From a phage, in sequence record PZ445425.1: a DNA stretch of 60,068 nucleotides; one strand, written 5' to 3'. Positions 14,209 through 59,513 of the stretch are shown here, one piece after another (within the stretch, counting starts at the first letter, position 1; every line of letters starts with the position of its first letter). Position numbers and translations under genes: made by a program. The notes beneath the pieces were generated by a model. That model worked only from the letters and a program-made list of their open reading frames with translations, had not been told where the DNA came from and searched no databases.

Positions 14209-14617
14209 GTTGCCGGGCTGGCAGACACGTTTATTAACCACAGTAAAGGAGTTGTCATCGACTCCTTTTTCTTGGGGTGAGAATGATTGCTGCACCTTCG
14301 CGGCAAAATGTGTTGATGCTCAATACGGCACAAATATCTACGAACAAGTCGCTGGAAAATATAGTACAGAGCTTGGAAGTAAAAAGTTCACTATTGAAAG
14401 AGTTGGAACCGCTTACCTTCCATTGTTATTGGATACCTACCTCAGCGAACGCGTTGACAAGAACTATGCGCAAAGAGGTGATGTGGTTACATTTGAGGGA
14501 GCATTGGGCTTAACTGCTGGCATATTATGGACGGGATATGTATGGGCTATGGGTCCGAACGGTGTGGAAACATTCCCGCTTAATAAGATCAAAATTACGG
14601 ATATTTGGAGGGTCTAA
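14201..14617 (+). CDS. tail assembly protein, possible peptidase-like (K-like)
   Basis: Track ORF 14033..14617 trimmed to ATG 14201 (ATGA overlap with upstream stop); contains SWGENDCC motif. Confidence 0.35.
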   Translation: MSKLPGWQTRLLTTVKELSSTPFSWGENDCCTFAAKCVDAQYGTNIYEQVAGKYSTELGSKKFTIERVGTAYLPLLLDTYLSERVDKNYAQRGDVVTFEGALGLTAGILWTGYVWAMGPNGVETFPLNKIKITDIWRV

Positions 14618-17600
14618 TGCCACCAGCAATAATTGGAGCAGCGATAGCTTTAGGTGCGTCGGCTGCTGCTGCGGCTAGTATTATTTCGGCTACTACCGCT
14701 CTCGTTATCGGTATTGCTGCAACCGCGGCAGGTGCTCTTTTGTCTAAGACACCAAATATGAACTTTGATGCTTACAAGGGGCAGCAAGAGCGTAAACAGG
14801 TTCTGCGTGCAGCTACAGCGTCACGTTCTGTTGTATATGGCACGACTGTAGCGTCCGGACTATTAGCATTTGCGGAGGAAGAAGCTGGAGATCAAGATGA
14901 AGGTGAATGGATGCATCTTGTTGTCGTTCTTGCTAGTCATAAATTGGAAGGTATTGAAACGATTTGGTTGGGTGATGACGGAATTGATTGGTTTGGTGAA
15001 AACGCTACTTGGGAGTTCCATAACGACCGTCAGACTGTTGACCCATTCATGTTAAAACATTGTCCTTCCTGGAAGGAGGATATGATTGGCAAGGGTATTG
15101 CATGGCTACGTTTAAGCTTAAAGTTTGATGCTGAAAAATTCCCATCCGGTTTGCCAAACGTCAAGGTGTTGAAAAAGGGACGTAGAGTTTATGACCCACG
15201 TTCCGGTCAAACTGTCTTTAGCGATAACGCTGCTCTTGTTATTCTTGATTATTTCCGCACGTATTTAAAGCGCAAGGACGAGAATATTAACTGGGACCAA
15301 TTCAAGGAAGCTGCTAACATCTGCGATGAGTTTGTTACTAACGCAGATAATACTACGGAAAGACGCTATCGCATTAACGGTGAGTTTGAAGTGGACGAAG
15401 CACCTGCCAAAATCCTTGATGCTATGCTTGAAGCTTGCGGTGGGGAACTAACCTATATTGGCGGCAAGCATGGTCTGTTAGTTGGCGCTTATTACGGCCC
15501 AGCTACCATGACTTTGGATGAAAGCTGCATTGCTGGGGATATTAAAATAATCCCTGAGACATCTTATAAAGAGCGTACAAATACCATTACAGGTACATTC
15601 GTCGACCCGAAGCAAACATATGCTGAAGCAGATTTTCCTCCAGTTGTGGTTAAGGAATGGGTGGAAAAAGATGGCGGTGAAATAACGCAAGACATGGATT
15701 TCCGCTTTGTTACAAGTGAATATCAAGCTCAACGTCTTGCTAATATTATTTTACGTCGTAAGCGTGTTGGTCGAACAATTGAAGTGCCGTGTAACATGAA
15801 GGGGTATAAATTCCGCCCCGGCATGTATGTCAACGTAACCATTTCAAATATCGGAATGAAAAACGTTGAGATGCGCGTTACTAAATGGTCATTCGATCCT
15901 AAAGGTGGGATTAATCTTGTCCTTCGTCAAGATTTCCTGGAAATGTGGGACGACGCTATTGGTAAACCAATGGAGCGCCCGGATCTGGTAGACCTTCCGT
16001 CTGGTGCTATTGCTCAACCGCAAAACCTTCAGTATCAGGTATTGCAAATTAGCGATGTTGTGCAGGGTGTTTTAACGTGGAGCAATATTGGACAGGTGGC
16101 ATATAACCGCGTAGCCGTGCGACAGGGAGGTACAACGGTTTGGACCGCACAAGTCCCTGGCCAAAACGTTCGCGTTACTGGGCTGCTGCGGGGCGCGTAT
16201 ACAGCGCATGTTCAAGCGGTAGCTTATAGCGGGGCAATATCGCCTGAAGCATATCTGGAATTTAATATTCAGGCTCCGCCGCCACCAACATCTATTGAAG
16301 TACAACAGGGTTACTTTGCTATAAGCCTGATCCCTAAATCTGCGGACCTTGCAAACGTTAGCACGCAGTATGATTTTTGGACTTCCGGTGAAACAAGATT
16401 GTCATCTGTGTCTACAGACGTTGTTGAGCGTGAAGCAACTCGTAAAGGTATGGGCACAACCTGGACTTCGGAAGGTTTGAAGAATGACCACACTTATTAC
16501 TGGTATGTCCGCACCATTAACGCTTTCGGATCATCTGCATTTGTAGAAGTAGCTGCATTGTGCTTTACAACAGCTACAGATTTGATGCCACAAATTGATT
16601 CTGAATTCAAGAAGACGGAGACTTATAAAGAGCTCACTACTGAAATCACAGGTGTTAAAGATGGAGTTACTCAGCTTAGCCAAACTGTAGTGCAAACTGA
16701 AAAGCGTTTAAGTCAAAGCGTTAGCAATGTTCAACAAAGCGTTATCACTTTGGATGGTGTTGTTCAGGATCATGGCGTTACCATTAATAAACAAGGACAG
16801 CTCATCGATGCACAGGGTAAGTTGATTGACACTCAAGGTAAGACTATTGAAACGGTTAGCGCGACCGTGCAGGAGACAAGTAAAGCAGTTGTAGATCTGG
16901 AAGGTAATGTTAACGCTCAATGGGGTGCTAAAGTACAGGTAGATAGTAAAGGGCAAAAATACGTTGCTGGTATGCAGTTAGGTATGGAAGGGTCCGGTGG
17001 AGCTGTTCAGTCTTACTTCATGGTAAGCGCTAACAACTTTGCTATCTATAACCCGACAAATAGCGTAGCAGAACTAGCATTTGCTGTTAAGAACGGTCAA
17101 GTGTTCATGAAGGCTGCGTTTATTGAAAATGGTACTATTGACAGCGCTAAAATTTCAAATCAAATTCAGTCAACAAACTACGCAAACAATAGCGCGGGTT
17201 GGATGATTAACAAGAATGGTAGCGCTCAGTTTAACAACGTAACGATAAGAGGTACTGTATACGCTAGCAACGGATCTTTCACAGGCACAGTGAACGCAAC
17301 AAGCGGTAAATTCAAGGGTACTGTGGAAGCTACCAGTTTTGTGGGTGATGTTGCGAATATGTGTGTCATTGCTGAGTCTGCAATACCAAACACACAAACT
17401 ACAAGTTCAAGAACCTGGACAAAAACTTTCAAAGACTCATCTGGTTCAACATTATCTAAAGACTTTGTGTTGCTATTAAGTTATACTTTAACCGCATATA
17501 AATCAAATCAGGCAAGTCGTATAATTGTGACTGCTAACATAGGGGGGACATCAATTACAAGGAGGATTGAGCGAGCTGCTAATGGTCCTGCCATGGATGT

Positions 17601-17739
17601 AACCATACCTTTAGCAGTGAAAGGAAAGACAGCGTCGAGCGTAACAATAAGCGTTAAGGAGGAATATACGAACGTCTATGGGAGCTACTTGCGCCCGTCT
17701 GTAATATTAATGAGTCGCGGAACTGGTAGTTGGTCGTAA
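14617..17739 (+). CDS. central tail fibre / host specificity protein (J-like)
   Basis: About 1040 aa; start taken at ATG 14617 (RBS GGAGGG, TAATG overlap); hydrophobic N-terminus. Confidence 0.6.
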   Translation: MPPAIIGAAIALGASAAAAASIISATTALVIGIAATAAGALLSKTPNMNFDAYKGQQERKQVLRAATASRSVVYGTTVASGLLAFAEEEAGDQDEGEWMHLVVVLASHKLEGIETIWLGDDGIDWFGENATWEFHNDRQTVDPFMLKHCPSWKEDMIGKGIAWLRLSLKFDAEKFPSGLPNVKVLKKGRRVYDPRSGQTVFSDNAALVILDYFRTYLKRKDENINWDQFKEAANICDEFVTNADNTTERRYRINGEFEVDEAPAKILDAMLEACGGELTYIGGKHGLLVGAYYGPATMTLDESCIAGDIKIIPETSYKERTNTITGTFVDPKQTYAEADFPPVVVKEWVEKDGGEITQDMDFRFVTSEYQAQRLANIILRRKRVGRTIEVPCNMKGYKFRPGMYVNVTISNIGMKNVEMRVTKWSFDPKGGINLVLRQDFLEMWDDAIGKPMERPDLVDLPSGAIAQPQNLQYQVLQISDVVQGVLTWSNIGQVAYNRVAVRQGGTTVWTAQVPGQNVRVTGLLRGAYTAHVQAVAYSGAISPEAYLEFNIQAPPPPTSIEVQQGYFAISLIPKSADLANVSTQYDFWTSGETRLSSVSTDVVEREATRKGMGTTWTSEGLKNDHTYYWYVRTINAFGSSAFVEVAALCFTTATDLMPQIDSEFKKTETYKELTTEITGVKDGVTQLSQTVVQTEKRLSQSVSNVQQSVITLDGVVQDHGVTINKQGQLIDAQGKLIDTQGKTIETVSATVQETSKAVVDLEGNVNAQWGAKVQVDSKGQKYVAGMQLGMEGSGGAVQSYFMVSANNFAIYNPTNSVAELAFAVKNGQVFMKAAFIENGTIDSAKISNQIQSTNYANNSAGWMINKNGSAQFNNVTIRGTVYASNGSFTGTVNATSGKFKGTVEATSFVGDVANMCVIAESAIPNTQTTSSRTWTKTFKDSSGSTLSKDFVLLLSYTLTAYKSNQASRIIVTANIGGTSITRRIERAANGPAMDVTIPLAVKGKTASSVTISVKEEYTNVYGSYLRPSVILMSRGTGSWS

Positions 17740-17744
17740 TAAAT

Positions 17745-17775
17745 AATTAACCCCTCAAACGAGGGGTTAATTTTC
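17745..17775. terminator. bidirectional intrinsic terminator
   Basis: Perfect 12-bp palindrome aattaacccctc-aaac-gaggggttaatt with T-run; lies between convergent genes. Confidence 0.7.
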
Positions 17776-18007
17776 AATAAGCAATCACACAGTTTGAAGG
17801 TGAACCAATTCGTCGGTATTCATGATCAATCTCATGGCACCATTGCCCAGTCATTGGAAGCTTTTCGGTATCATAAATTAAAGAACCGTTACCATCACGG
17901 TCTAACGGTTTTGGAATAACGCCGGAATTAGGTTTACCCGTATTTAAACCGTTACCACATGCAGTGAGGGATAAAGTTAATGCCAGCATAATTAAAGCGC
18001 GTTTCAT
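17774..18007 (-). CDS. small lipoprotein, candidate receptor-blocking superinfection-exclusion factor
   Basis: 77 aa with signal peptide and lipobox LTAC; only minus-strand gene in the tail module, sitting between two fibre genes. Confidence 0.55.
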   Translation of the reverse strand: MKRALIMLALTLSLTACGNGLNTGKPNSGVIPKPLDRDGNGSLIYDTEKLPMTGQWCHEIDHEYRRIGSPSNCVIAY

Positions 18008-18089
18008 TGGGACTCCTTTGTGTTGTTGTCAAGGTTCAATTCTAATATACTTGTTGTGTTGAGTAAGTCAAATAAATGTGGGAGATATT

Positions 18090-21000
18090 ATGGCAACTCG
18101 TTTACGTGGTACTTTAGTTGATGGTTTAAATAAACCAATTGTCAACGCTACAGTTGCGCTTTTAGCGAAAGGGAATAGCTTATTGGTATTGTCCGGTAGT
18201 GAAGCTATCTTTAAAACAAGCGCAACCGGAACATATGATATTACCGTCCAAACAGGCTATTACAAGGTTATTATCGGTCCACAAGGTAGCGAGCCTTATA
18301 AAGCTGGTGAAATTGCTATTTACGCGGACAGTAAAGAAGGTACGCTGAATAACTATTTAACTTCCTGGGCGCCAGAAGAGTTAACTCCAGAAGTTATTGC
18401 ACAGGTTAAAGATTTAGTTTCACAAGCTGAGACAGCTAAGAATGCTTCAGCTTCGTCAGCTACTAAATCCGAGCAGGAGCGAGTTAAAGCAGAAGCTGCT
18501 GCTAAAAAGGCGGAAGACACTGCTAATGGTATGAAGGCGTCTATTGGTTTAACAAATAACCCTCGAGATTGTCCAGATATCTCCGGCAATCCTTCTTCCT
18601 TTTTAGGCTTTCTACGAATTATGGAAAGTGCAATTGGCTGGCCTTCTGTAGCTTCAGGTGAGCGTTATTTATCCGGTTTTATTTGCCCAACTTTAGGGAG
18701 CGATCCAACATTCACTGGGCTATTTATAGGGTATCTTACTGGTAGCACTTATACTTATAAATGGAACCCATCTAGCGGACCTTTGTGGTATAAACATATC
18801 AAGTCCTCGGAAATAGATAGATATAGTCAATTATCCGATTCCACTGCTATTTATAATGCATCAAAGAGCGCTAGCCTTGTCATAAAAGATACTAAAACTT
18901 GGGGAGCTTGGGACAATCAAACTTCCAAATATATACCTCTTGCAATAGCTCAGGGTGGTACAGGAGGAGTTACTGACGCGGATGCTCGTACTAACCTAGG
19001 ATTAGGGCGGAGTAGTTCACCCACATTTGGTCATTTAAATCTTCTTGTTGAAAGTGATTCAGCACTAGCTTCATCAGGAATGATTAATCAGTATTTACGT
19101 AATACTAATGGGACACAGAGGGCTCGTAGCAGAATTTATTCTGAAATAAGAGGCGACAATAAAGCGTGGTTAACACTTCATCTCCAATCGGATGCCGCGA
19201 CAAATAAATATGCCGGTTTAAGTATTGATGGTAACTTCCAGATTAATGGAAGCTTTATCGGTAGTGCTTTGAGCCTTACCGATGTTGCTACCTCTAAAGT
19301 AAATCTGCAAATTAATAGGTTTGTTCAGAACACTGGTGAAACTGATGTGGTTAACCATGCAGCGACAGCTCAAATTTTTATCACTGATAATAAAAATTGG
19401 GGGGCTTACGATAAAGAATTAAAACGACATATTCCGTTACCCGTTTCACAGGGTGGAACTGGAGCGGTTACTATTGGTGACGCTAAGACAAATTTACAAA
19501 TACCTTCTGTTGGTGCTGGAGACTGGTTGGAGATTGCTGCTCCTTCTGGCGTTGAAGCGGGGAAATATTATCCAATTGTAATCAAAGCTCAATATGCCTC
19601 TTTATATGCTTCTGGTTTCTTTATAGATATACAAACTAGAAGCTCTAGCGGTTCGGATCCTATGAACTGTTGTACATTTAACGGATTCATACGAACAGGT
19701 GGTTGGTCGGATAGGAAAGACGCTGGCTATGGATACTATAACCGATATGGTTCTAATGAGCTTGCTTTAAAATGCATATTGGTATCCGCTAAGAATGCTG
19801 AAGACAATATAGCTGTATATGTAGAAGGTAGAGCATTCCCAGTGAAAATGCGCATACCTCAATTTTGCACAGCTACGGCAGTCGCTTCAGCTTCTACATA
19901 TGGTGAAGTGACATTTGCTTGGGGTACATCCAATCCTGCTACAGATTCAGTTGGGGTAAATACCCTATTTGATTTCTCTTTAAATAGAGTTGGTTTTTAT
20001 CAAGCATCTACTGTAGGAAACTATTATATTGGTAACGGCCAACGTATAGTTCTTTCTAATGGGATGTCCGTAGGGGATGAATTAAGCTTAACCACACCTA
20101 AGATTACTTTCAGTGGCACAGTAGCAGCGGGTAACGGTTTTATTGCGGATGGGACGTCTGTATCCAATGCTACTTTTTATAGTCGTTATCGTGTCGGTGA
20201 TACTATTTACGGTGCGGAGTTCCGAGCTAGTGAGAATGCAGCTCAGGTTATTGTTAGAGATCCGACAGGAACTAACCATCAATTCTTCAACTTTAATCTT
20301 AACGGAAGCTTCAGTCCGCCAAACGGATTATTGTCTTCTACTGGTGTGGATTGGAACAGTCAAATTAATACCGTCAATAAGTTCTATGGAATTGCTGGAC
20401 AAGTTAACACACCAGAAAATAATGTGGTTTATGGTGGTATCCATGTAGGATTTAGCGGAAACTATGCCTTTCAGATATGCGGAAGAAATGGTAAATCATT
20501 CTTTAGAACAGTTGAGGCTGGACAAGAAGGGCAATGGAATAGGCTCCTTGTCAAAAACGACTATGGTGTAGGTTCTGTTGCCGAAAATCTGCCGAACGAC
20601 GCGTCTAGCGGTTTTTATTCGGACTCCAAAGCAATTTCTTGGGCTCCTGGTAGTGGAGCGGGCTTTCAGTCGTCCTATGATGCAAACAGAATATGGCAAT
20701 TTTGGTTAAACCAACAATCGCAAGCTCTTTTTCGTTATAACGATAGCGGTAACGCGCAAGCGTCTAAGACAGACAGACCTTGGACAACGCTTCAAGCTGC
20801 TGGTACATCTGATATTAATTTCAAGCGTGTGCACGGTGAAATGGACACAGATGTTGCGTTAGATAATATTAGCAAGCTTGAATTTGTTTATTTCAACTAC
20901 TTGTCCGATGGTCCGGAGCGTGACATTCGCAGAGGTATCATAGCGCAACAGGCCCAGGAAGTTGATCCTGAATATGTACATAGTGCTGAAACATCCGGAA

Positions 21001-21170
21001 AAATGACTTTGGATTCTAACCCATTGTTATTGGATGCATTAGCTGCAATACAATCCCTCAAGAAAAAGGATCAAGATAATAAAGACCGTATTAGTAAACT
21101 TGAGACTGAAGTCGAGGAACTTAAGACGTTAGTTGCTACGCTTGTTAATAAAGAGCAACCATTACCATAA
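18090..21170 (+). CDS. tail fibre with C-terminal intramolecular chaperone domain
   Basis: Start set to ATG 18090 (RBS GGGAGA); C-terminal region and final coiled-coil resemble self-cleaving chaperone domains of fibres and tailspikes. Confidence 0.7.
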   Translation: MATRLRGTLVDGLNKPIVNATVALLAKGNSLLVLSGSEAIFKTSATGTYDITVQTGYYKVIIGPQGSEPYKAGEIAIYADSKEGTLNNYLTSWAPEELTPEVIAQVKDLVSQAETAKNASASSATKSEQERVKAEAAAKKAEDTANGMKASIGLTNNPRDCPDISGNPSSFLGFLRIMESAIGWPSVASGERYLSGFICPTLGSDPTFTGLFIGYLTGSTYTYKWNPSSGPLWYKHIKSSEIDRYSQLSDSTAIYNASKSASLVIKDTKTWGAWDNQTSKYIPLAIAQGGTGGVTDADARTNLGLGRSSSPTFGHLNLLVESDSALASSGMINQYLRNTNGTQRARSRIYSEIRGDNKAWLTLHLQSDAATNKYAGLSIDGNFQINGSFIGSALSLTDVATSKVNLQINRFVQNTGETDVVNHAATAQIFITDNKNWGAYDKELKRHIPLPVSQGGTGAVTIGDAKTNLQIPSVGAGDWLEIAAPSGVEAGKYYPIVIKAQYASLYASGFFIDIQTRSSSGSDPMNCCTFNGFIRTGGWSDRKDAGYGYYNRYGSNELALKCILVSAKNAEDNIAVYVEGRAFPVKMRIPQFCTATAVASASTYGEVTFAWGTSNPATDSVGVNTLFDFSLNRVGFYQASTVGNYYIGNGQRIVLSNGMSVGDELSLTTPKITFSGTVAAGNGFIADGTSVSNATFYSRYRVGDTIYGAEFRASENAAQVIVRDPTGTNHQFFNFNLNGSFSPPNGLLSSTGVDWNSQINTVNKFYGIAGQVNTPENNVVYGGIHVGFSGNYAFQICGRNGKSFFRTVEAGQEGQWNRLLVKNDYGVGSVAENLPNDASSGFYSDSKAISWAPGSGAGFQSSYDANRIWQFWLNQQSQALFRYNDSGNAQASKTDRPWTTLQAAGTSDINFKRVHGEMDTDVALDNISKLEFVYFNYLSDGPERDIRRGIIAQQAQEVDPEYVHSAETSGKMTLDSNPLLLDALAAIQSLKKKDQDNKDRISKLETEVEELKTLVATLVNKEQPLP

Positions 21171-58548: not shown

Positions 58549-58893
58549 ATGTTCAATTCACCCAACGAACATTGGACAGTTCTAGCGGGGTTTGCGTTTA
58601 TCTCCCTCATTGGGGGAGCTCTCGGTTATGTCATGCGTACAATAGACGCTGGTAAGAAAGTACGGGCAAGCATTGCGTTTCTTGAAGGCTTATCCGCCGC
58701 TTTCTTTGGCGTTATAATGTATGCGATCTACAGGGAGTTTAACATCAGCCTTTGGTTCGCTTTTGGCCTTGCTGGCCTATTTGCTTGGGCAGGTTCACGT
58801 GCTACGCTAAAAGCCCTAACGTCGCTTATAGCTTCACGGACAGGGATCAAACTCGATTCAGGGGACTGCAAACATGAAAACGATTCTAAATAA
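58549..58893 (+). CDS. holin (putative, three transmembrane helices)
   Basis: 114 aa with three hydrophobic helices and charged C-terminus, adjacent to spanins. Confidence 0.5.
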   Translation: MFNSPNEHWTVLAGFAFISLIGGALGYVMRTIDAGKKVRASIAFLEGLSAAFFGVIMYAIYREFNISLWFAFGLAGLFAWAGSRATLKALTSLIASRTGIKLDSGDCKHENDSK

Positions 58894-59350
58894 CTTCTTC
58901 AGTTTTATAAAAACTAAACCGCGTCTGTTTATCGAGTATTTGATGATCGGCGCGGTTGTGTTTTTATGCGGGGTGGCTGCATACTTGTGGTCACAGAACG
59001 AGCTCAGCAAAACTAATTTAAATCATGCTGAGCAAAGACTAACCGTTGTAGAACGGGACAATGCAAAGCTGGGCGAAGCTGTTGTATTTCTTGCATCCCA
59101 ACGGGAGAAGGATACTGAATCCTACCGAAAATTGGCTTCAGCAATTGAAAGTGAGCAACATAACCACAGGTTGCTTCAGGACAAATTAAAAGCACTGGAG
59201 AAAAGCAATGCCGACGTCAAAGCTTATCTTAATGAGCGTGTTCCTGATGATTTGCGCAGGCTGCTCGACGGAGATACAACCTCCACCACCGCCGCAGATA
59301 GTGAAGATAAAACTTCCGGCCCATCTGTTGGTAGAATGTCGGGAAGTTGA
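58874..59350 (+). CDS. i-spanin (Rz-like)
   Basis: N-terminal transmembrane helix followed by coiled-coil periplasmic domain; contains the embedded o-spanin start. Confidence 0.6.
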   Translation: MKTILNNFFSFIKTKPRLFIEYLMIGAVVFLCGVAAYLWSQNELSKTNLNHAEQRLTVVERDNAKLGEAVVFLASQREKDTESYRKLASAIESEQHNHRLLQDKLKALEKSNADVKAYLNERVPDDLRRLLDGDTTSTTAADSEDKTSGPSVGRMSGS

Positions 59351-59513
59351 TAAATATCCTTTGGTTTATACAAGGGACATTATCCAACGTTTGCAGGATA
59401 CAGAAACAGCTCTGACTGAATGTAAACTGAGGGTTAAGGAAATCATACGCTATGAAGCTGAAAATGTTTCGCTTGATTTTGTAGGATCAAGCAATTATAT
59501 TCAGCCTAAATAG
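59208..59513 (+). CDS. o-spanin (Rz1-like lipoprotein), overlapping i-spanin in another frame
   Basis: Signal peptide with lipobox-like ICAGC, proline-rich mature region; classic overlapped Rz/Rz1 architecture. Confidence 0.6.
   Translation: MPTSKLILMSVFLMICAGCSTEIQPPPPPQIVKIKLPAHLLVECREVDKYPLVYTRDIIQRLQDTETALTECKLRVKEIIRYEAENVSLDFVGSSNYIQPK

What the first reader, a model, noticed from the sequence alone, without database searches (positions are those of the whole stretch)
17774..18007. Opposite-strand lipoprotein gene wedged between the two tail-fibre genes
It is the only minus-strand gene in the 23-kb structural module. It encodes a 77-aa protein with a signal peptide and lipobox and is flanked by a bidirectional terminator. 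This arrangement resembles receptor-blocking lipoproteins that phages place beside their receptor-binding gene to prevent superinfection and protect progeny.
Basis: partly seen in the sequence, partly recalled or inferred. Interest (0 to 1): 0.55.

Follow-up and report, generated by a model that had tools for sequence, protein, structure and literature searches.

The report
LamB-linked superinfection-exclusion lipoprotein gene
This small backwards-facing gene next to the phage's receptor-binding tail tip is real and most likely makes an outer-membrane lipoprotein that shuts off the phage's own receptor (the LamB maltoporin); a relative of it has already been shown to do this, so it is a solid but largely expected finding.

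Summary
Window 17774-18007 (-) encodes a 77-aa prolipoprotein (lipobox LTAC, Cys17). It has its own conserved sigma-70-like promoter, an RBS and a strong shared terminator hairpin, and lies between the J tail-tip gene and the lateral tail-fibre gene.

The mature part is under strong purifying selection (dN/dS 0.02-0.05). The window matches Seuratvirus phage SeppeHuegi (Bas24) in length and GC; that phage and its lipoprotein-carrying relatives Bas21-23 are listed as LamB-dependent.

The protein shares 55% identity (73% over the mature core) with mEp010 gp116 (Lpp010), which sits in the same opposite-strand position. Expressing Lpp010 excluded LamB-dependent phages, including lambda (PMC11893012).

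The family occurs with two unrelated J tip types and in virulent phages, temperate phages and E. coli prophages, including Nissle 1917. This argues that it is matched to the receptor rather than to the tail tip.

It shows no sequence similarity to T5 Llp, Cor or Rtp45, though size, lipid anchor and Cys count are alike.

This is a new member of a recently characterised kind. How a plug-less porin would be blocked from the periplasm is unknown, and this protein itself is untested.

The parts
17774..18007 (-). Prolipoprotein CDS, 77 aa. Signal peptide is residues 1-16 (nt 18007-17960). Lipobox LTAC is nt 17968-17957. The mature 61-aa lipoprotein is Cys17-Tyr77 (nt 17959-17777). Stop codon is 17776-17774.
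   Evidence: ORF and translation. Lipobox, +2 Gly and two extra Cys. PHROG 12984 'lipoprotein', E 2.6e-54. Invariant C17, PNSGV, TE and QWC...C in 28-30 homologs. dN/dS 0.02-0.05 in the mature part.
18044..18071 (-). Sigma-70-like promoter of the lipoprotein gene: -35 TTGACT (18071-18066), 16-nt spacer, -10 TATATT (18049-18044).
   Evidence: Consensus scan, 10 of 12 matches. The -10 is identical in Seurat, KurtStettler and the E. coli Nissle and MS 115-1 prophages. The -35 is TTGACT in the phages and TTTACT or TTAACT in the prophages. Function is inferred, not shown.
18013..18018 (-). Ribosome-binding site AAGGAG, 5 nt upstream of the ATG.
   Evidence: Read directly from the sequence; conserved in all five close relatives. 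An RBS is annotated at the same place in Seurat.
17745..17772 (.). Shared, apparently bidirectional, intrinsic terminator hairpin between the convergent J and lipoprotein genes.
   Evidence: Fold energies -17.6 and -18.2 kcal/mol, z -7.2 and -4.9. Terminator scan hit on the - strand. Annotated as bidirectional in Seurat. KurtStettler and mEp010 have a different GC hairpin at the same place.
14617..17739 (+). J-like central tail fibre / tail-tip gene. The start is placed by analogy with Seurat; the first in-frame start codon is TTG at 14605. The variable receptor-binding tip is roughly the last 129 codons (17350-17739).
   Evidence: Pfam Phage_Tail_Tip, Ig_J_second, Ig_J. The last 129 aa match only Seurat (96%) and the MS 115-1 prophage J (93%) among 13 J proteins compared, whereas upstream parts match many.
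18090..21170 (+). Lateral (side) tail-fibre gene. Its first ~58 nt belong to the conserved block shared with lambdoid prophages.
   Evidence: Pfam phage_tail_N and Peptidase_S74. Start placed by analogy with Seurat gp21. Block limits.
17224..18148 (.). Exchangeable module: J tip, terminator, lipoprotein gene, promoter and the 5' end of the tail-fibre gene. It is shared at 89% DNA identity with a lambdoid prophage of E. coli MS 115-1. The sub-block 17740-18148, without the J tip, is shared at 87% with the E. coli Nissle 1917 prophage.
   Evidence: blastn of the window against loci L013 and L012. The N-terminal 600 aa of the J proteins are only ~21% identical.

Best explanation
The gene encodes a small lipoprotein that disables the phage's own terminal receptor, the LamB maltoporin.

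**Proposed steps**
1. Host RNA polymerase transcribes the gene from its own sigma-70-type promoter (inferred).
2. The product is exported and acylated at Cys17 (inferred from the lipobox).
3. Because residue +2 is Gly, the Lol pathway sorts it to the inner leaflet of the outer membrane (inferred from the established +2 rule).
4. The 61-residue mature protein, probably stabilised by a Cys57-Cys73 disulfide, acts on LamB from the periplasmic side, so that LamB-dependent phages can no longer infect (inferred).

**Benefit.** For a virulent phage, the main gain would be that progeny are not wasted on infected cells or on LamB-bearing debris, and competitors are excluded. In the prophages that carry the same gene, it would act as an expressed moron protecting the lysogen.

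**Shown here:** gene reality, strong constraint, lipoprotein signals, genomic placement, homology to Lpp010, and association with LamB-dependent phages.

**Shown by others, for the homolog:** the exclusion phenotype.

**Inferred:** direct binding to LamB, the periplasmic-side mechanism, and the timing of expression.
For: **1. Homology to an experimentally tested protein**
- mEp010 gp116 (Lpp010): 55% identity over 95% of the query by tblastn, E 1e-21; 73% over 52 mature residues, E 4e-30.
- The sequence of locus mEp010_116 fits the residue positions quoted in the paper.
- Lpp010 excluded LamB-dependent mEp010, mEp044, mEp554 and lambda (PMC11893012).

**2. Same architecture in mEp010**
- J, then a terminator, then the opposite-strand lipoprotein gene, then the tail fibre.

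**3. Receptor association**
- Bas21, Bas22 and Bas23 carry the gene at 96%, 86% and 99% identity and are listed as LamB-dependent. Bas22 was confirmed by complementation.
- The window matches Bas24 SeppeHuegi in length (60068 bp) and GC (0.447); Bas24 is listed as LamB.
- Bas25 VogelGryff, which targets LptD, lacks the gene and has a 321-aa minus-strand gene in the same slot.

**4. Matched to the receptor, not the tip**
- The same lipoprotein, 95-98% identical in its mature part, accompanies two J tip types that do not align with each other.

**5. Constraint**
- dN/dS is 0.02-0.05 for the mature part versus 0.3-0.5 for the signal peptide.

**6. Common format with proven receptor-blocking lipoproteins**
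- Precursors are 75-82 aa and mature forms about 59-64 aa, each with a lipid-anchor Cys plus exactly two other Cys.
- Each gene sits next to the receptor-binding gene on the opposite strand.
- Llp and Rtp45 bind their receptors from the periplasmic side (10.1101/2025.07.07.663478).

**7. Expression signals**
- Own promoter, RBS and terminator, conserved or functionally replaced across relatives.
Against: - This protein itself has never been tested.
- PMC11893012 reports spot and infection assays. In the passages I read, adsorption was not measured, so a block after adsorption is not excluded.
- Lpp010 did not exclude mEp013, although that phage is LamB-dependent. The effect is therefore not a simple loss of LamB.
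- PD328 carries a J C-terminus related to this phage's (49% over the last 249 aa) without this lipoprotein. HK97 carries the other tip type, the one found in KurtStettler, EcN and mEp010, and also lacks it. The gene is dispensable for LamB use.
- LamB has no plug domain, unlike FhuA, so the Llp mechanism cannot simply be transferred.
- AlphaFold2 models were poor (pLDDT 63.5 and 55.5), so there is no structural support.
- Assignment of the window to SeppeHuegi rests only on matching length and GC and on the record being absent from the collection.
Confidence: 0.78

Rival explanations
1. The lipoprotein excludes phages at a step after adsorption. Examples would be blocking the trigger for tail-tip opening, the formation of the outer-membrane or periplasmic conduit, or DNA passage. 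Phages would still bind LamB but would not inject.
For: - PMC11893012 itself lists 'interfere with DNA ejection ... or block the host receptor' as alternatives.
- Only infection assays are described in the passages read.
- LamB-dependent mEp013 escapes Lpp010, which is easier to explain if the target is a phage-specific step.
- LamB has no plug that could transmit a periplasmic signal (established knowledge).
Against: - Lpp010 excludes lambda as well as the mEp phages. Their J tips are unrelated and their tail genes only distantly related. The feature they are known to share is LamB.
- The gene travels with LamB-type J tips in five phage backgrounds.
- The characterised analogues Llp and Rtp45 act on the receptor.
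Confidence: 0.15
2. It is a host-physiology moron. In this reading it is a lipoprotein that changes envelope properties, such as serum resistance in the manner of lambda Bor, or maltodextrin uptake, and phage exclusion is incidental.
For: - It has a moron-like layout with its own promoter and terminator.
- It is present in prophages of commensal and probiotic E. coli.
Against: - It has no similarity to Bor or to any Pfam or NCBIfam family.
- It is retained under strong constraint in strictly virulent Seuratvirus and Dhillonvirus-size phages, which gain nothing from long-term host fitness.
- In every context examined it is adjacent to J.
- An exclusion phenotype has been demonstrated for the homolog.
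Confidence: 0.05
3. It is an outer-membrane spanin (Rz1-like) or other lysis accessory lipoprotein.
For: A weak PHROG hit to an 'Rz-like spanin' family (E 0.006) confined to residues 1-32, that is, the signal peptide. The protein is a small outer-membrane lipoprotein.
Against: - The phage has a canonical lysis cassette about 41 kb away: holin 58549-58893, i-spanin 58874-59350 and an overlapping proline-rich lipoprotein ORF 59208-59513.
- No i-spanin partner lies next to 17774-18007.
- The mature sequence is not proline-rich.
Confidence: 0.01

Closest known systems
Lpp010 (gp116, 'type-C lipoprotein') of temperate phage mEp010 and the mEpimmI phages (PMC11893012)
   Same: - Homologous: 55% identity overall, 73% over the mature core.
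- Same invariant Cys pattern and PNSGV / DTEKLP.TGQWC motifs.
- Same opposite-strand position between J and the tail fibre, with a terminator after J.
- The host phages use LamB.
   Different: - The window gene sits in a virulent Seuratvirus with a different J tip type.
- The linker after the lipid anchor differs: CGNGLNTGK versus CAVDKEAALHNL.
- Only Lpp010 has been tested experimentally.
T5 Llp (FhuA-inactivating lipoprotein)
   Same: - 77-aa precursor and 61-62-aa mature lipoprotein.
- Lipid-anchor Cys plus two further Cys.
- Own promoter.
- Encoded next to the receptor-binding protein gene on the opposite strand.
- It works from the periplasmic face of the receptor.
   Different: - No detectable sequence similarity.
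- The target is FhuA, a plugged TonB-dependent transporter, whereas the inferred target here is LamB, a plug-less trimeric porin.
- Fold comparison was not possible because the models were poor.
Rtp45 / Pfam PF24052 'Phage_lipoprotein' (LptD-directed exclusion lipoprotein of phage Rtp and Oekolampad)
   Same: - It occupies the hypervariable slot directly downstream of gpJ on the minus strand.
- It is a small lipoprotein of about 6 kDa with an intramolecular disulfide.
- It binds its receptor at the periplasmic side.
   Different: - The window protein does not match PF24052, whereas Rtp45 does at E 1e-37.
- Rtp45 is co-encoded with a separate RBP (rtp44). Here the receptor-binding function is inferred to lie in the J tip, and no separate RBP gene is present.
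Cor (T1, phi80, N15, HK022; NCBIfam NF047972 'phage exclusion lipoprotein Cor')
   Same: - Small lipoprotein (75 aa) with two extra Cys.
- Minus-strand gene at the end of the J/RBP cluster, with a shared terminator.
- Annotated 'Cor superinfection exclusion protein' in the T1 record and described as disabling T1's porin receptor (PMC11990801); the FhuA link rests on my own knowledge.
   Different: - The window protein does not match the Cor model, whereas T1 Cor does at E 3.5e-15.
- The receptor is different.

Membership tests
Lpp010-type (PHROG 12984) LamB-associated exclusion lipoproteins | Sequence homology across the mature domain to the tested member Lpp010 | tested here: met
   BLASTP on the mature parts gives 73% identity over 52 aa, E 4e-30. 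tblastn gives 55% over 95% of the query. PHROG 12984 matches at E 2.6e-54 over the full length.
Lpp010-type (PHROG 12984) LamB-associated exclusion lipoproteins | Signal peptide with lipobox and conserved acylated Cys | tested here: met
   Lipobox LTAC with Cys17. This Cys is invariant in the 30-sequence alignment.
Lpp010-type (PHROG 12984) LamB-associated exclusion lipoproteins | Gene on the opposite strand between J and the side tail-fibre gene | tested here: met
   Seen in the window, mEp010, KurtStettler, Seurat and the E. coli Nissle and MS 115-1 prophages.
Lpp010-type (PHROG 12984) LamB-associated exclusion lipoproteins | Carrier phage uses LamB as terminal receptor | tested here: met
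   From the literature, not from sequence. Bas21-24 are listed as LamB in BASEL Table S5, and Bas22 was confirmed by complementation. The window matches Bas24 in length and GC. The mEp010 group is LamB-dependent.
Lpp010-type (PHROG 12984) LamB-associated exclusion lipoproteins | Expression excludes LamB-dependent phages | not testable with these tools
   Shown only for Lpp010. It needs a plating and adsorption experiment with this gene.
T5 Llp | Sequence similarity to Llp | tested here: not met
   No BLASTP hit even at E 1000 with word size 2, for either the whole or the mature protein.
T5 Llp | Fold similarity to the solved Llp structure | tested here: inconclusive
The AF2 models reached only pLDDT 63.5 and 55.5.
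T5 Llp | Small lipoprotein with two extra Cys, encoded beside the RBP gene on the opposite strand | tested here: met
   Llp: 77 aa precursor, 62 aa mature, 2 extra Cys. Window protein: 77, 61 and 2. T5 llp is transcribed divergently from oad.
Cor (NCBIfam NF047972) | Match to the Cor profile above its cut-off | tested here: not met
   The window protein gave only signal-peptide-level hits (best E 0.0037, to LptM). T1 Cor scores 55.8 bits against a cut-off of 31.
Rtp45 family (Pfam PF24052 Phage_lipoprotein) | Match to PF24052 | tested here: not met
   No PF24052 hit for the window protein at E up to 1. Rtp45 matches at E 1.3e-37.
o-spanin (Rz1-like) | Gene embedded in, overlapping or adjacent to an i-spanin gene in the lysis cassette, with a proline-rich mature part | tested here: not met
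   The lysis cassette, with an overlapping i-/o-spanin pair, lies at 58549-59513. No transmembrane coiled-coil partner lies next to 17774-18007.

The most novel reading that the evidence does not exclude
A single, almost invariant 61-residue lipoprotein neutralises the plug-less trimeric porin LamB as a phage receptor from the periplasmic side. It would do so against at least three unrelated receptor-binding tips: two J tip types found here, plus lambda J. The structural mechanism would differ from Llp/FhuA and Rtp45/LptD. The cassette hops between virulent and temperate phages. Its copy in E. coli Nissle 1917 'prophage 4' could be part of the unexplained full resistance of that probiotic to lambda.
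Probability: 0.4. Interest if true: 0.55.

Novelty: new member of a known kind. Interest (0 to 1): 0.3.

Why it matters
- The gene gives a likely function to something annotated as 'hypothetical protein' or 'lipoprotein' in dozens of Seuratvirus, Nonagvirus and Dhillonvirus-size phages and in E. coli prophages.
- It links those genes to the one tested member, Lpp010.
- It is a compact candidate for studying how a simple porin can be made phage-proof from the periplasm.
- It is relevant to phage-cocktail design, because LamB-targeting phages would cross-exclude one another.
- It bears on predicting receptors from genomes, where this accessory gene is a LamB marker.
- It may help explain phage resistance in lysogens such as E. 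coli Nissle 1917.
- Conceptually it fits what specialists already expect at the locus downstream of gpJ.

Tried and rejected
- **Structure prediction.** The full-length model reached pLDDT 63.5 and the mature-only model 55.5. Neither was good enough for fold comparison.
- **Structure and sequence searches of the PDB.** Foldseek against the PDB gave only noise, with E of at least 6. A PDB sequence search found nothing.
- **Curated family libraries.** Pfam and NCBIfam gave only signal-peptide-level hits to LptM. This is not a real relationship.
- **Exhaustive profile search of 1.8 billion representative proteins.**
  - It returned only 5 hits.
  - The hit to a 4467-aa repeat adhesin (P0031, E 1e-11 summed over 9 repeats of 'DANGDITSVTVPGEGTW') looks like a short-motif resemblance, not homology of function.
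  - P0032 is a low-complexity repeat protein.
- **Spanin hypothesis.** Rejected.
- **Strict co-variation of the lipoprotein with the J tip sequence.**
  - Rejected. The lipoprotein is nearly constant while the tips fall into two unalignable types.
  - PD328 has a tip related to this phage's and HK97 has the other tip type; both lack the gene.
- **Identity of the window.** I tried to fetch MZ501104 to confirm it, but the record is not in the collection.
- **Literature searches.** Searches for a Seuratvirus-specific description of this gene found none.

Full report
**1. The observation**

Window 17774-18007 on the minus strand is an ATG-initiated ORF of 77 codons.
- The product begins with a basic N-terminus, a hydrophobic stretch and the lipobox L-T-A-C. 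This places the acylated cysteine at residue 17.
- Residue +2 is Gly. The mature chain is 61 residues and contains exactly two more cysteines.

The gene converges with the J-type tail-tip gene, whose stop is at 17739. The two are separated by a hairpin with a 12-bp stem at 17745-17772.
- The hairpin folds at -17.6 kcal/mol on the + strand and -18.2 kcal/mol on the - strand.
- z-scores are -7.2 and -4.9.
- The consensus scan flags it as a terminator on the minus strand.
- The annotators of the closely related phage Seurat call the same element a 'bidirectional terminator between end of gene and end of apparent moron'.

Upstream of the ORF lie a sigma-70-like promoter and an RBS.
- Promoter: TTGACT-16-TATATT at 18071-18044, matching 10 of 12 positions.
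- RBS: AAGGAG, 5 nt before the ATG.
- Both are conserved in Seurat and KurtStettler and, with a weaker -35, in two E. coli prophages.

The neighbours are a J/tail-tip protein (Pfam Phage_Tail_Tip, Ig_J) and a lateral tail fibre (phage_tail_N plus Peptidase_S74).

No other credible minus-strand gene exists in the first ~23 kb. In the syntenic Seurat annotation, gp20 is likewise the only minus-strand CDS among gp1-gp23.

**2. It is a real gene under constraint**

- tblastn finds the protein in 43 phage records.
- blastn finds the gene in 34 of 5426 complete E. coli genomes, always on the chromosome.
- A search of 5.8 billion proteins gave 29 cluster representatives.
- In alignments, the lipid-anchor Cys, a PNSGV motif and T47-E48 are invariant, and the second and third Cys are invariant or nearly so.

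Nei-Gojobori counts against Seurat, KurtStettler and the two prophage copies give:

| Region | dN/dS | Note |
|---|---|---|
| Mature part | 0.02-0.05 | dS up to 0.86 |
| Signal peptide | 0.3-0.5 | |

**3. What the window is**

The DNA is 90-97% identical to Seuratvirus phages (Queuovirinae) such as slur01, Seurat, KS_W4 and WildeMaa.

Its length (60068 bp) and GC (0.4465) equal the values listed for Escherichia phage SeppeHuegi (Bas24, MZ501104) in BASEL Table S5. That table gives LamB as its terminal receptor. The accession is absent from the searchable collection. I therefore treat the identification as very probable but inferred.

**4. Link to a tested protein**

The family includes gp116 of the temperate phage mEp010.
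- Overall identity is 55%; identity over 52 mature residues is 73%, E 4e-30.
- The sequence of locus mEp010_116 fits the residue positions quoted in PMC11893012.
- mEp010_116 lies on the opposite strand between J (mEp010_115) and the tail fibre (mEp010_118), with a predicted terminator after J.

The paper reports the following:
- mEp010, mEp013, mEp044 and mEp554 need LamB.
- Plasmid expression of this 'type-C' lipoprotein (Lpp010) excluded mEp010, mEp044, mEp554 and, unexpectedly, lambda.
- It did not exclude mEp013.

**5. Receptor association in this phage's own genus**

| Phage | Listed receptor | Lipoprotein gene |
|---|---|---|
| Bas21 GottfriedDienst | LamB | present, 96% |
| Bas22 KurtStettler | LamB (lamB complemented) | present, 86% |
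| Bas23 WildeMaa | LamB | present, 99% |
| Bas25 VogelGryff | LptD | absent |

Sources.

- In VogelGryff, J is shorter and the slot holds a 321-aa minus-strand gene. PLYYY01 has the same layout.
- BASEL and a 2026 preprint describe this slot as the hypervariable receptor-specificity locus.
- In that locus, RBPs sit with 'cognate superinfection exclusion proteins'. LamB or TolC specificity resides in the J C-terminus itself.

**6. Matched to the receptor, not to the tip**

Comparison of 13 J proteins shows that the last ~129 residues fall into at least two types that do not align with each other.
- One type is found in the window, Seurat and the MS 115-1 prophage.
- The other is found in HK97, KurtStettler, the Nissle prophage and mEp010.

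Both types occur with essentially the same lipoprotein. The mature part is 95-98% identical between the window, KurtStettler and the two prophage copies.

At the DNA level:
- An 89%-identical 926-bp block (window 17224-18148) is shared with the MS 115-1 lambdoid prophage. It spans the J tip, terminator, lipoprotein gene, promoter and the first ~58 nt of the tail-fibre gene.
- The Nissle prophage shares only 17740-18148, that is, the cassette without the tip.
- The N-terminal 600 residues of these J proteins are about 21% identical.

The cassette is therefore a mobile module, carried by virulent Seuratvirus and Nonagvirus phages, Dhillonvirus-size phages, mEpimmI temperate phages and lambdoid prophages.

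Co-occurrence is not obligatory.
- PD328 has a J C-terminus related to this phage's (49% over the last 249 aa) but lacks the gene.
- HK97 has the other tip type, the one found in KurtStettler, EcN and mEp010, and also lacks the gene.

**7. Mechanism**

*Shown*
- A constrained, exported, lipobox-bearing protein encoded beside the receptor-binding tip.
- Homology to a protein that excludes LamB-dependent phages.

*Inferred from established knowledge*
- Acylation at Cys17.
- Lol-dependent sorting to the outer membrane, because +2 is not Asp.
- A Cys57-Cys73 disulfide.

*Inferred by analogy*
- Action on the receptor from the periplasmic side, as demonstrated for T5 Llp on FhuA and Rtp45 on LptDE.

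*Open questions*
- How this would work on LamB, which has no plug, is unknown.
- The escape of mEp013 shows that the block is not equivalent to removing LamB.
- A post-adsorption block remains a live rival; I put it at about 0.15.

The late tail-fibre gene downstream has no recognisable sigma-70-like promoter of its own. Late transcription must therefore cross the terminator and run antisense to the lipoprotein gene. This is compatible with early or constitutive expression of the lipoprotein from its own promoter, but it is untested.

**8. Comparison with known families**

Functionally and architecturally the gene resembles T5 llp, T1 cor and Rtp rtp45.

| Protein | Precursor (aa) | Mature (aa) | Extra Cys |
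|---|---|---|---|
| Window protein | 77 | 61 | 2 |
| T5 Llp | 77 | 62 | 2 |
| T1 Cor | 75 | 59 | 2 |
| Rtp45 | 76 | not determined | 2 |
| Lpp010 | 82 | 64 | 2 |

All are encoded next to the receptor-binding gene on the opposite strand.

Membership in those three families fails on sequence.
- No BLASTP similarity to Llp, Cor or Rtp45 in the mature parts.
- No match to the Cor model NF047972, which T1 Cor matches.
- No match to PF24052, which Rtp45 matches.

Fold-level comparison was inconclusive because both AlphaFold2 models were poor.

The family has only a PHROG entry labelled 'lipoprotein' and no Pfam or NCBIfam model.

The spanin alternative is excluded by the canonical holin, i-spanin and overlapping o-spanin cassette at 58549-59513.

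**9. Verdict**

The receptor can now be named as LamB, and a tested homolog, Lpp010, identified.

This is a new, untested member of a recently characterised kind, so interest is modest. The remaining novelty lies in three places:
- the unknown mechanism of porin inactivation;
- the independence of the lipoprotein from the tip type;
- its spread into prophages, including E. coli Nissle 1917.

Noticed in passing
whole window (1-60068): The window length (60068 bp) and GC (0.4465) equal those listed for Escherichia phage SeppeHuegi (Bas24, MZ501104; Seuratvirus; receptor LamB) in BASEL Table S5. That accession is missing from the searchable phage collection. The window is therefore probably this complete genome.
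   Followed up: partly
L012:7001-7234 (E. coli Nissle 1917 CP022686; equals CP007799:2,039,441-2,039,664): E. coli Nissle 1917 carries an intact 77-aa homolog with 59 of 61 mature residues identical. It lies on the opposite strand between J and the side tail fibre of a lambdoid prophage. The coordinates fall in PHAST 'prophage 4' of Bury et al. 2018. That study examined 'prophage 3', whose pr gene explained only ~200-fold lambda resistance, and invoked an 'unidentified factor'. This lipoprotein is a candidate for that factor.
   Followed up: partly
L004:4766-5056 (JenK1), L005:3777-4055 (PD328), L015:3292-3561 (Salmonella phage GS71): In other phages, the same slot downstream of J holds different small minus-strand exported proteins that are not lipoproteins. 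JenK1 and PD328 have 92-96-aa Gly-rich proteins with an AYA|xG signal-peptidase-I site and two C-terminal Cys. Tlsvirus GS71 has an unannotated 89-aa secreted ORF. These may be further receptor-directed exclusion factors of unknown kind.
   Followed up: partly
window 17350-17739 versus L008, L012, L006, L002: Two J tip types that do not align with each other both belong to LamB-dependent phages. One ends ...GTGSWS. The other is HK97-like and ends ...GSGSFTG. KurtStettler (Seuratvirus) carries the HK97-like tip.
   Followed up: yes
window 17740-18090: No sigma-70-like plus-strand promoter was found between the terminator and the lateral tail-fibre start (18090). That gene must apparently be transcribed through the 'bidirectional' terminator and antisense across the lipoprotein gene. 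This implies antitermination or leakiness, and possible transcriptional interference late in infection.
   Followed up: no
window 58549-59513: The lysis cassette comprises a holin (58549-58893), an i-spanin-like protein with an N-terminal TMD (58874-59350), and an overlapping out-of-frame ORF (59208-59513). That ORF has a lipobox-like ...ICAGC followed by PPPPP, as expected of an Rz1-type o-spanin.
   Followed up: partly
P0027 (E. coli, 72 aa homolog): One homolog cluster lacks a canonical lipobox (…VAIALCCTAFA|NTNEPNSGV…) and may be cleaved by signal peptidase I. If so, it would be a soluble periplasmic variant of the family.
   Followed up: no
P0031 (4467-aa metagenomic protein): The family profile hit nine repeats ('DANGDITSVTVPGEGTWTVD...') of a giant repeat adhesin at a summed E of 1e-11. 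This is probably resemblance of a short beta-hairpin motif (D.NG.L..DTEKLP.TGQW) rather than a functional relationship.
   Followed up: partly
window 18090-21170: The lateral tail fibre here is a single 1026-aa protein with a C-terminal Peptidase_S74 intramolecular chaperone domain. Seurat and KurtStettler have shorter fibres followed by separate small genes or chaperones. The fibre distal part diverges beyond about window 18550 among close relatives.
   Followed up: no
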